Shown: positions 63,103 to 64,000 of the stretch, in pieces | How the letters are laid out: every line of letters begins with the position of its first letter | Position numbering within the stretch: position 1 is the first letter of the stretch | From: Escherichia coli | Lineage (GTDB): Bacteria; Pseudomonadota; Gammaproteobacteria; Enterobacterales; Enterobacteriaceae | Strand: one strand, 5' to 3' | Length of the DNA stretch: 64,000 nt | Assembly (NCBI RefSeq): GCF_003991155.1 | Contig: NZ_CP031293.1 | The notes under the pieces: generated by a model | Told to the model about the DNA's origin: nothing | Database searches by the model: none | The model's input: only the letters and a program-made list of their open reading frames with translations | Program-made: the position numbers and the translations under genes

Positions 63103-64000
63103 ATGCCAAAGAAGGCCAAGGAACTCTCAGGACTCGTCGTATCACGATTAAAATCCGAAGGCATGTATGCCGTTGGTGGTGTGGATGGTTTATACCTTCG
63201 CATCCGAAATCAGTCCCGTGCATGGGTTCTTTGCGTGGCTATGGGAACCCGAATCAACAATCTCGGTAGAACAGTTCCAAGACGTTTGAATATGGGGCTT
63301 GGCCCCTACCCGGAAGTCTCCTTAGCCGAAGCGCGTGACAAAGCGCGTGAGCTACGTAAACAAATCCGTAATGGTATTAATCCCCTTCAGGAAAAACACG
63401 AGCAAAAAGCCCGGCAGGAAATACTGGCCCGGAAGAAAAAGACCTTTGCTGAATGTTGTGAAGAAGTGCTGGAAGTCAAAGACAGTGAGATGAAGAATAA
63501 AAAACATCTTGCTCAATGGCGTTCCACACTGGAAACCTATGCCTACCCTTTCATTGGCAAAAAGGCCGTTAGTGAAATCACCAAAGTAGATCTTCTGGCA
63601 ATACTCGAACCTATCTGGTTAACCAAGAATGAAACCGCCAGCCGTCTACGTGGACGCATTGAAACAGTGATTGATTACGCTAAGGCCAAAGAATACTTTG
63701 AAGGTGATAATCCTGCCGCATGGAAAGGTATGCTGAAACCTCTGTTGCCTCAGCCAAGTAAAGTTCAGATCACCAAACACCATGCCGCTCTTCCCTATAG
63801 CCAGATCGGCTCCTTTATGAAAGAACTGCGTGAACGAAGCGGCGTTTCGCCTCGTGCGCTTGAGTTTGCCATACTGACCGCTGCACGCTCAGGTGAAATT
63901 CGTGGTGCCGAGTGGTCAGAGATCGATCTTGAAGGTAAAACGTGGACCATACCCGCCAGTCGAATGAAAGCAGCAAAGGAGCATCGAGTTCCTCTGTCTG
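63103..64000 (+). mobile_element. Tyrosine-type site-specific integrase (phage/island integrase with arm-binding N-terminal domain), truncated by the window end
   Basis: ATG at 63103 opens a frame of 299 codons with no stop before position 64000; translation shows arm-domain motifs (GLYLRIR, YPEVSLAEARDKAREL) and a box I motif (KEHRVPLS). It is absent from the ORF track because it has no in-window stop. Confidence 0.85.

What the first reader, a model, noticed from the sequence alone, without database searches (positions are those of the whole stretch)
63103..64000. Integrase gene at the right edge marks the start of a probable mobile genomic island
A tyrosine recombinase ORF with clear arm-domain and box I motifs starts at 63103 and runs off the window. 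It is the only mobility gene in 64 kb of otherwise core chromosome. In recalled E. coli K-12 this position holds yodB, serU and mtfA with no integrase. Integrase-proximal regions of such islands are recognised hot spots for anti-phage and other accessory cargo, so any novel system at this locus would lie just beyond position 64000.
Basis: partly seen in the sequence, partly recalled or inferred. Interest (0 to 1): 0.6.

Follow-up and report, generated by a model that had tools for sequence, protein, structure and literature searches.

The report
Integrase of the known serU island
The gene at the window's right edge is the intact start of the integrase of the already described E. coli "serU island", a 22-kb mobilizable genomic island inserted in the tRNA-Ser gene serU; in genomes identical to this window it carries a standard Thoeris anti-phage system, so the finding is correct but ordinary.

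Summary
An uninterrupted ORF starts at 63103 and encodes the first 299 of 406 residues of a tyrosine recombinase: arm-binding domain, central domain, and the start of the catalytic domain with the box I arginine. A 14-bp copy of the serU 3' end lies 165 bp upstream, at 62925-62938. This is the left junction of an insertion.

All 14 complete E. coli genomes that match the last 24 kb of the window at 100.0% identity continue with the same 21.95-kb island (37.9% G+C against 49.4% for the core). It ends at an intact serU, followed by mtfA and asnT. K-12 has the exact empty site.

The integrase is 98.3-98.5% identical to that of the CFT073 "serU island", described in 2005 and related to Salmonella ROD21. 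The site is hotspot #17 in the 2023 E. coli defence-island catalogue.

The island has an integrase, an excisionase-like gene, a MobQ relaxase, a pilin and PilV, RepL and two H-NS paralogues, but no type IV secretion system. That makes it an integrative mobilizable element. Cargo sits in about five variable slots; here one holds a complete type I Thoeris system (ThsA/ThsB).

The only unexplained item is an orphan two-gene module outside the window.

The parts
62478..62924 (.). Chromosomal flank downstream of serU (ancestral attB left arm)
   Evidence: 95.4% identical over 461 bp (window 62478-62938) to the K-12 segment between yodB and serU, up to and including the first 14 nt of serU. The 200 bp left of the core match K-12 at 196/200.
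62925..62938 (-). attL core: 14-bp copy of the 3' end of tRNA-Ser(CGA) serU (reverse complement of CCCTCTCTCCGCCA). Direct repeat of the island.
   Evidence: Exactly two copies in 49.6 kb of the identical genome, with 0 expected by chance. The second copy is the 3' end of intact serU. Joining the outer flanks reproduces the K-12 empty site.
62939..63102 (+). Left end of the island (P' arm) with the presumed integrase promoter region
   Evidence: Sequence departs from K-12 exactly after the 14-bp core. It is 96.5% identical to the CFT073 serU island from the core onward. A sigma-70-like site TCGACA-16-TATTTT with an extended TG lies at 62955-62982; this is a consensus match only. No convincing arm-type repeats were found.
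63103..64000 (+). Integrase gene, codons 1-299 of 406 (serU-island tyrosine recombinase); runs off the window
   Evidence: Open frame with the first ATG after an in-frame stop. Pfam domains found. RefSeq CDS of 406 aa in identical genomes. 400/406 residues identical to the CFT073 serU-island integrase WP_001298509.1.
63181..63405 (+). Arm-type DNA-binding domain (aa 27-101)
   Evidence: Pfam Arm-DNA-bind_3 PF13356, E 1.5e-16.
63445..63729 (+). Core-binding / central domain (aa 115-209)
   Evidence: Pfam Phage_int_M PF22022, E 4.5e-29. PDB 2khv 'Phage integrase' matches aa 114-212, E 1e-25.
63802..63999 (+). First 66 residues of the catalytic domain, with box I Arg262 (63886-63888) and Lys292
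   Evidence: Pfam Phage_integrase PF00589 model positions 7-72. Residue positions computed. The rest of the domain (to aa 375) is seen in the full-length protein of identical genomes.

Best explanation
The ORF is the 5' three-quarters of the integrase gene of the E. coli serU island. This is a roughly 22-kb integrative mobilizable element related to the Salmonella ROD21 / EARL island family.

Shown:
- The island is inserted precisely in the last 14 nt of tRNA-Ser(CGA) serU. It supplies an identical 14 nt, so serU stays intact.
- The window holds attL (62925-62938), the island's left arm, and integrase codons 1-299.
- In every complete genome that is 100.0% identical to the last 24 kb of the window, the island continues for 21.95 kb. 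Its genes in order are: integrase, VOC-family gene, PilV-like adhesin and type IV pilin, small TraD, an orphan gene trio, MobQ relaxase, lipoprotein, DUF4755, ThsB+ThsA (type I Thoeris), RepL, a full-length H-NS paralogue (Hfp-like), a truncated H-NS (H-NST-like), an AlpA/excisionase-like HTH, DUF6387. Then come intact serU, mtfA and asnT.

Inferred mechanism:
- The integrase, helped by the excisionase-like protein at the other end, recombines the two 14-bp cores to excise a circle.
- RepL may maintain the circle transiently.
- The MobQ relaxase nicks an oriT, probably in the traD-mobQ intergenic region, and a co-resident conjugative plasmid supplies the type IV secretion system.
- In the recipient the integrase re-inserts the island at serU.
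- The H-NS paralogues temper silencing and fitness cost.
- Cargo sits in about five variable slots and is exchanged between variants. The Thoeris cargo would protect the host by TIR-made cyclic ADP-ribose signalling that activates the SIR2 NADase.
For: - Domain content and an intact frame for the integrase.
- 14-bp direct repeat with 0 chance expectation, intact serU, and an exact K-12 empty site.
- Window identical to NZ_CP041996.1 apart from 3 mismatches in the first 43 kb and none in the last 21.7 kb.
- The 14 genomes at 100.0% identity over the last 24 kb all carry the island at 100% coverage and 100.0% identity.
- G+C is 37.9% in the island against 49.4% in the core.
- Integrase 400/406 identical to CFT073's, with the same junction sequences and the same gene order.
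- Literature: the serU island of CFT073/536 carries H-NST and Hfp, is related to ROD21, and has a different integrase and site (PMC7074111). EARL islands share pilin, MobA/TraD and int/RDF modules and are regarded as mobilizable (PMC6035254).
- MobQ scores 248 bits against a curated cutoff of 200.
- The 72-aa HTH matches excisionase PHROGs at E 1.7e-12.
- The H-NS paralogue (134 aa) and the 80-aa protein match H-NS positions 1-135 and 5-75 respectively.
- ThsA E 8e-203 and ThsB E 1.4e-85, both over full-length PADLOC profiles.
- Integrases 98.3-98.8% identical sit next to different cargo in four lineages. This argues for horizontal spread and cargo exchange.
Against: - Everything beyond position 64000 is read from other genomes, not from this window.
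- Excision or transfer of a serU island has not been shown here, nor in the papers read. One paper treats the serU island as immobile and lacking mobilization genes (PMC5521745).
- No oriT and no arm-type integrase sites could be identified.
- One backbone gene next to Thoeris is frameshifted in this variant.
- The integrase lies at the island end distal to the intact tRNA, unlike the asnT islands where it abuts the tRNA.
Confidence: 0.88

Rival explanations
1. The island is a fixed, no longer mobile relic. The integrase gene is intact but the island now spreads only vertically, or by large-scale homologous recombination of the whole serU-HPI-pks region, as proposed for B2 strains.
For: PMC5521745 reports serU-island subtypes that track clonal PAI groups, and argues for co-transfer with flanking backbone mediated by a conjugative plasmid rather than island-autonomous transfer. 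The 33 genomes with the island at 99% identity or more look like one lineage. One backbone gene is frameshifted. No oriT or arm sites were found.
Against: The integrase (406 aa, all catalytic residues), the excisionase-like gene, MobQ (above the curated cutoff) and both 14-bp cores are intact. Nearly identical integrases (98.3-98.8%) flank different cargo sets. The same backbone occurs at asnT with a different integration module, which needs recent modular exchange. Related EARL islands excise, and ROD21 transfers (PMC6035254).
Confidence: 0.25
2. The integrase belongs to a prophage or a phage satellite (P4-like or PICI) rather than a conjugatively mobilized island.
For: The integrase has the P4-type domain layout (Arm-DNA-bind_3 plus Phage_int_M). 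Its nearest phage relatives are temperate-phage integrases at 42-48% identity. An AlpA-like gene is present.
Against: No capsid, terminase, tail, primase or satellite-specific gene is annotated in the 22 kb. Instead there are a relaxase, TraD, a pilin, PilV and RepL. PHROG hits are limited to the excisionase and proteins of unknown function.
Confidence: 0.03
3. In the genome the window comes from, the ORF is a solo or truncated integrase fragment, with core genes following directly.
For: The window itself stops at codon 299, so the 3' end is unseen.
Against: All 14 genomes at 100.0% identity over the last 24 kb, and 33 with the island at 99% identity or more, have the full gene and the island. 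No stop or frameshift occurs in the 299 codons present.
Confidence: 0.02

Closest known systems
serU island of uropathogenic E. coli CFT073 / 536 (PAI-CFT073-serU; Williamson & Free 2005; carries tcpC, hfp, hnsT)
   Same: Same insertion point and the same 14-bp repeat and junction sequences. Integrase 400/406 identical. Same backbone order (int, pilV, pilin, traD, mobQ, lipoprotein, DUF4755, RepL, DUF4756, H-NS paralogue, DUF6404, truncated H-NS, HTH, DUF6387, serU), with 84-96.5% DNA identity in the shared blocks.
   Different: Cargo differs in five slots. There is no tcpC/TIR/macro-domain module and no ComEA-like gene. Instead this variant has a VOC gene, an orphan three-gene insert between traD and mobQ, two small unknown genes after mobQ, and ThsA/ThsB. 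The host lineage has a T6SS island at asnT, not HPI/pks.
ROD21 / Enterobacteriaceae-associated ROD21-like (EARL) islands at Asn-tRNA genes (Pina-Iturbe et al. 2018)
   Same: Size class (21-30 kb). Type IV pilin plus pilus-related gene, MobA/MobL-type relaxase plus TraD, P4-like integrase plus RDF with an adjacent ~840-bp gene, full-length and truncated H-NS homologues, and TIR proteins in some members. PilV, pilin, TraD, Hfp and H-NST are 94-97% identical to an asnT-borne island in strain EC25.
   Different: The integrase is only ~27% identical to that of the asnT island. The RDF is 58% and DUF6387 38% identical. The target is tRNA-Ser, and the integrase lies at the end away from the tRNA. The literature itself excludes the serU island from EARL on this ground (PMC7074111).
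E. coli defence-island hotspot #17 (mtfA-zinT, tRNA_Ser_CGA) of Hochhauser, Millman & Sorek 2023
   Same: Same locus. It was reported occupied in 116 of 816 genomes (14%). Here 381 of 5426 complete genomes (7%) have this integrase at this junction.
   Different: That catalogue lists the site. I did not retrieve which elements or systems it records there.
Type I Thoeris (ThsA SIR2-SLOG + ThsB TIR)
   Same: Both proteins match the PADLOC ThsA1 and ThsB1 profiles over their full length (E 8e-203, 1.4e-85), and the genes are adjacent and co-oriented.
   Different: No difference was detected. Function was not tested.

Membership tests
Tyrosine recombinase (phage integrase family, P4-like layout) | Arm-binding, core-binding and catalytic domains | tested here: met
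   Pfam PF13356, PF22022 and PF00589 on the window fragment and on the 406-aa protein of identical genomes.
Tyrosine recombinase (phage integrase family, P4-like layout) | Catalytic R-K-H-R-H/W-Y residues | tested here: met
   R262 and K292 lie inside the window. H347, R350, H374 and Y384 are in the continuation in identical genomes. Positions were assigned by inspection and by spacing relative to lambda Int; no structural alignment was made.
serU island (CFT073/536 type) | Insertion at the 3' end of serU between zinT(/yodB) and mtfA, with a direct repeat | tested here: met
   The 14-bp repeat is at window 62925-62938 and at intact serU. Junctions are identical to CFT073. K-12 has the empty site.
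serU island (CFT073/536 type) | serU-type integrase | tested here: met
   98.3-98.8% identity to the integrases of the CFT073, WL297 and NS-NP030 serU islands.
serU island (CFT073/536 type) | Encodes Hfp (full-length H-NS paralogue) and H-NST (truncated) | tested here: met
   A 134-aa protein matches H-NS 1-135 (E 3.6e-52) and an 80-aa protein matches H-NS 5-75. They are in the same positions as in CFT073. Seen only in the identical genomes, beyond the window.
serU island (CFT073/536 type) | Carries tcpC (typical of B2 variants; not a defining feature) | tested here: not met
   No tcpC/TIR/macro module is present. That slot holds two small unknown genes.
EARL (ROD21-like) islands | ROD21-like attL/integrase module and insertion at an Asn-tRNA gene | tested here: not met
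   Insertion is at tRNA-Ser. Identity to the integrase of an asnT-borne island with the same backbone is 27%. No direct comparison with SEN1970 was made. The literature states that the serU island has a different integrase.
EARL (ROD21-like) islands | Conserved pilin/pilus, MobA-TraD and RDF plus ~840-bp gene modules | tested here: met
   All are present. PilV, pilin and TraD are 94-97% identical to the asnT island of EC25.
Integrative mobilizable element (IME) | Integrase plus relaxase, but no type IV secretion system of its own | tested here: met
   MobQ is above the NCBIfam cutoff. No VirB4, T4CP or other mating-pore gene appears among the ~28 annotated genes. The 'TraD' is a 101-aa protein, not a coupling protein.
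Integrative mobilizable element (IME) | Functional oriT and mobilization by a helper | not testable with these tools
   oriT was not identified. ROD21 transfer is reported to need pSLT (PMC6035254). I found no data for serU islands.
Type I Thoeris | Adjacent ThsA (SIR2 + SLOG/STALD) and ThsB (TIR) | tested here: met
   PADLOC PDLC00407 (positions 2-477 of 478) and PDLC00428 (positions 1-218 of 219).
P4-like satellite / PICI | Primase-helicase, capsid-size redirection or packaging genes | tested here: not met
   None is annotated. PHROG hits are limited to the excisionase and proteins of unknown function.

The most novel reading that the evidence does not exclude
The serU / ROD21-like backbone may be best understood as a multi-slot carrier of phage-defence genes, not as a 'pathogenicity island'. 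On this reading its TIR 'virulence factors' (TcpC in CFT073, which sits in a cargo slot next to a second TIR gene and a macro-domain gene) are primarily anti-phage cargo. The orphan two-gene module carried by this variant would then be a new defence, anti-defence or transfer-related module. That module is a 292-aa protein with invariant Cys/His residues, a confident predicted structure and no detectable fold relative, plus a convergent acidic ~100-aa partner. It sits next to the presumed oriT and recurs beside transfer genes in Lonsdalea and Pseudomonas syringae elements.
Probability: 0.2. Interest if true: 0.5.

Novelty: already known. Interest (0 to 1): 0.15.

Why it matters
Very little is new. 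The call correctly flags a real island boundary. However, the island (serU island, 2005), its relatives (ROD21/EARL, 2018), the site (hotspot #17, 2023) and the defence cargo (Thoeris) are all published, and the exact variant is present and annotated in at least 33 RefSeq genomes.

Three things have modest value:
- The annotation contradicts a published statement that the serU island lacks mobilization genes and is confined to phylogroup B2.
- The comparison maps about five cargo slots on a conserved backbone. One slot holds tcpC in uropathogens and others hold defence genes elsewhere, which invites re-reading TcpC-type 'virulence' TIR proteins as defence cargo.
- One orphan two-gene module with no fold relative is a candidate for experimental screening.

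Tried and rejected
- **tRNA in the window.** I looked for an intact tRNA next to the integrase. ARAGORN finds none near 63 kb. Only a 14-nt serU fragment is there, and the intact gene is at the far end of the island.
- **Arm-type integrase sites.** I searched both island ends and a reconstructed attP. Only AT-rich 8-mers and weak inverted repeats turned up, nothing convincing.
- **Rfam on 61000-64000.** One sub-threshold naRNA4 hit at 61370-61411 (29 bits against a gathering score of 59.5), outside the feature.
- **Promoter and terminator scan.** One plausible promoter-like site upstream of the integrase. The counts are not above shuffles (4 found against 2.2 +/- 1.6), so it is weak evidence.
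- **Did the island delete yodB?** Rejected. The yodB-less 222-bp variant is in 2296 of 5426 genomes, far more than carry the integrase, and strain NS-NP030 has both yodB and the island.
- **Prophage or satellite reading.** Rejected on gene content.
- **Other island proteins.** PADLOC, PHROGs and Pfam on the unknown proteins found no defence family beyond Thoeris.
- **Literature searches.** One search was spoiled because 'serU' matched 'serum' under word-start matching. No paper in the library links ROD21 with Thoeris. A looser two-of-five-term search listed no ROD21 paper among its ten results, so it does not exclude one.

Full report
**1. The observation**

The + strand from 63103 to the window end is one open frame. 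ATG 63103 is the first start codon after an in-frame TGA at 63088 and follows an AGGA motif.

Pfam on the 299 encoded residues gives Arm-DNA-bind_3 (aa 27-101, E 1.5e-16), Phage_int_M (aa 115-209, E 4.5e-29) and the first part of Phage_integrase (aa 234-299, E 7.6e-07). The box I arginine (AARSGE, R262) is at 63886-63888.

There are two small corrections:
- The window holds only two of the six catalytic residues. The others are beyond 64000.
- A 150-bp integrase pseudogene remnant is annotated at window 32869-33018, between yedK and fliE. The ORF is therefore not quite the only mobility-related sequence in the window.

**2. Where the window comes from and what lies beyond it**

The window is E. 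coli chromosome. Its last 24 kb are 100.0% identical to 14 complete genomes. Against one of them, NZ_CP041996.1, the whole window differs at 3 positions in the first 43 kb and none in the last 21.7 kb.

In that genome the ORF is a 406-aa tyrosine recombinase with all three domains. It is followed by about 28 accessory genes and then tRNA-Ser, mtfA and tRNA-Asn. All 14 genomes carry this stretch at 100% coverage and 100.0% identity, and 33 genomes carry it at 99% or more.

Everything I say about sequence beyond 64000 is read from these genomes, not from the window.

**3. Island boundaries**

ARAGORN finds no tRNA near the integrase. However, TGGCGGAGAGAGGG at 62925-62938 is the reverse complement of the last 14 nt of serU. 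In 49.6 kb of the identical genome this 14-mer occurs exactly twice, with 0 expected by chance. One copy is here. The other is 21,936 bp further on, as the 3' end of an intact 90-nt tRNA-Ser(CGA) on the minus strand.

That tRNA is identical to K-12 serU. K-12 has zinT-yodB-serU-mtfA-asnT with no integrase. Its sequence equals the left flank of the window copy, plus the 14-mer, plus the right flank of the distal copy.

This is a precise site-specific insertion that regenerates the tRNA. The island interior is 37.9% G+C against 49.4% for the rest of the window.

**4. What the island is**

Gene order in the identical genomes:
- integrase
- VOC-family protein
- PilV-like adhesin and a type IV pilin
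- a 101-aa TraD
- three unknown genes
- MobQ relaxase (248 bits against a curated cutoff of 200)
- two unknown genes
- lipoprotein, then DUF4755 and a 125-aa protein
- ThsB and ThsA
- a frameshifted backbone gene and two small unknown genes
- RepL and DUF4756
- a 134-aa H-NS paralogue, DUF6404, and an 80-aa protein matching only the H-NS oligomerisation domain
- two small genes
- a 72-aa HTH matching excisionase PHROGs (E 1.7e-12)
- DUF6387
- serU

No mating-pore or coupling-protein gene is present. This is the content of an integrative mobilizable element.

PilV is only distantly related (<60% identity) to the PilV of about 2500 plasmids, most of them predicted to be conjugative. The relaxase N-terminal domain is about 55% identical to that of small MobQ plasmids.

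**5. Comparison with what is known**

CFT073 has, at the same place, an island with the same junction sequences and the same backbone order. Its integrase is 400/406 identical to this one. That island is the published "serU island". It was first described for its H-NST and Hfp genes, it carries tcpC, and it is described as related to ROD21 but with a different integrase and integration site (PMC7074111; PMC5521745).

The ROD21-like (EARL) family is defined by a ROD21-type attL/integrase at Asn-tRNA genes. It shares pilin, MobA/TraD and int/RDF modules, H-NS homologues and, in some members, TIR proteins (PMC6035254).

I found the same backbone at asnT in strain EC25. PilV, pilin, TraD, Hfp and H-NST are 94-97% identical there, but the integrase is 27%, the excisionase-like protein 58% and DUF6387 38% identical. 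The integration module has been swapped on an otherwise shared backbone.

The serU-type integrase is 26-28% identical to the integrases of the asnT/asnW islands (HPI, pks, T6SS island). It is 42-48% identical to its best phage relatives, temperate phages of Acidovorax and Ralstonia.

The locus itself is hotspot #17 (mtfA-zinT, tRNA_Ser_CGA) in the E. coli defence-island catalogue, occupied in 116 of 816 genomes (PMC10121019 S1 Table). In the collection searched here, 381 of 5426 complete genomes have this integrase at this junction, and 835 hold some part of the island backbone.

**6. Cargo**

Relative to CFT073, the variant next to this window differs in five slots. Coordinates are for locus L002; window coordinate = L002 + 61580.
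- 2745-3474: VOC protein here; a 606-aa unknown in CFT073.
- 6253-8218: three unknown genes here; nothing in CFT073.
- 10072-11524: two unknown genes here; tcpC, a TIR gene, a macro-domain gene and a small unknown gene in CFT073.
- 13375-15783: ThsB/ThsA here; a ComEA-like gene in CFT073.
- A short segment after RepL.

Other variants hold different cargo:
- a TIR protein after the integrase and a NACHT protein between the H-NS genes
- a nuclease-domain protein and a P-loop NTPase
- a DotA/TraY-family protein and a restriction endonuclease
- DUF4238, SEC-C, radical SAM and CoiA-like proteins

ThsA and ThsB match the type I Thoeris profiles end to end (E 8e-203 and 1.4e-85). No other island protein matches a PADLOC family.

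**7. How it most likely works**

Shown: precise insertion at serU with an intact target gene; an intact integrase, excisionase-like gene and relaxase; no secretion system; near-identical integrases beside different cargo in four lineages.

Inferred from established knowledge of tyrosine recombinases, MobQ relaxases and the ROD21 family:
- integrase plus excisionase recombine the two cores to give a circle
- RepL may replicate the circle
- MobQ nicks an oriT, probably between traD and mobQ
- a helper plasmid's secretion system transfers the strand
- the integrase re-inserts it at serU
- the H-NS paralogues modulate silencing

Not shown: excision, oriT, identity of the helper, role of the island's pilin and PilV, Thoeris activity. 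I could not find arm-type integrase sites. The promoter-like site at 62955-62982 is only a consensus match.

**8. Rivals**

- A fixed relic spread by recombination of the whole region, as argued for B2 strains, cannot be excluded for this lineage. It fits poorly with intact mobility genes and modular exchange.
- A prophage or satellite is excluded by gene content.
- A truncated solo integrase is very unlikely given the identical genomes.

**9. Side observations**

- yodB is absent here. The 222-bp replacement (62256-62477) occurs in 2296 of 5426 genomes, and another strain has yodB together with the island. It is an independent polymorphism.
- The statement in PMC5521745 that the serU island has no mobilization genes and is confined to B2 disagrees with the RefSeq annotation. 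CFT073 itself has mobQ, traD and pilV. The island is also found in bovine, porcine, avian and wastewater isolates whose asnT site carries a T6SS island rather than HPI.
- The 292-aa protein in the second slot has only 12 homologue clusters in 5.8 billion proteins, none with a Pfam domain.
  - It has invariant C45, C48, H71 and C90 and a confident predicted structure (pLDDT 84).
  - It is always followed by a convergent, homologous ~100-130-aa protein, and it lies beside transfer genes in Lonsdalea and P. syringae elements. Its function is unexplained.

**10. Verdict**

The finding is real and its interpretation is right. It describes the left end of an already known island, at an already catalogued hotspot, carrying a known defence system. 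Novelty: already known. Interest: low.

Noticed in passing
window 32869-33018: A 150-bp integrase pseudogene remnant (missing its N-terminus) is annotated between yedK and fliE in the near-identical genome. The serU integrase is therefore not strictly the only mobility-related sequence in the window.
   Followed up: no
window 62256-62477: yodB and its surroundings (995 bp in K-12) are replaced by an unrelated 222-bp segment. This variant is in 2296 of 5426 complete E. coli genomes. It is independent of the island, because strain NS-NP030 has yodB plus the island.
   Followed up: yes
window 14303-14605: The tRNA Leu-Cys-Gly cluster between yecA and pgsA is hotspot #18 of the E. coli defence-island catalogue (occupied in 21% of genomes). 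It is empty in this window.
   Followed up: partly
[not shown]
   Followed up: partly
L005 22763-25300 (CFT073 serU island): The 'virulence factor' gene tcpC (annotated as NAD(+) hydrolase) sits in one of the island's variable cargo slots. It lies next to a second TIR-domain gene and a macro-domain gene. In other variants the cargo slots hold defence-type genes. This hints that TcpC may be defence cargo.
   Followed up: no
L002 24604-49365: Directly after serU-mtfA-asnT there is a second integrase (28% identical to the serU one), followed by an IS3 element and a complete type VI secretion system island. This is hotspot #16 of the catalogue, and it takes the place of the HPI of CFT073.
   Followed up: no
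L009 (strain EC25, asnT): The same island backbone (PilV, pilin, TraD, Hfp and H-NST 94-97% identical) is inserted at asnT with an unrelated integrase (27%) and a diverged excisionase (58%) and DUF6387 (38%). It lies in tandem with the HPI. The integration module is exchanged as a unit.
   Followed up: partly
Literature versus annotation (L005, L002): PMC5521745 states that the serU island carries no mobilization or transfer genes and occurs only in phylogroup B2. RefSeq annotation shows mobQ, traD and pilV in CFT073 itself. The island also occurs in livestock and wastewater isolates that have a T6SS island rather than HPI at asnT.
   Followed up: partly
window 61370-61411 (minus strand): A sub-threshold Rfam hit to naRNA4 (29 bits against a gathering score of 59.5) lies in the msrQ-zinT intergenic region. 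It may be a REP-type repeat (my guess, not checked) and is not part of the island.
   Followed up: no
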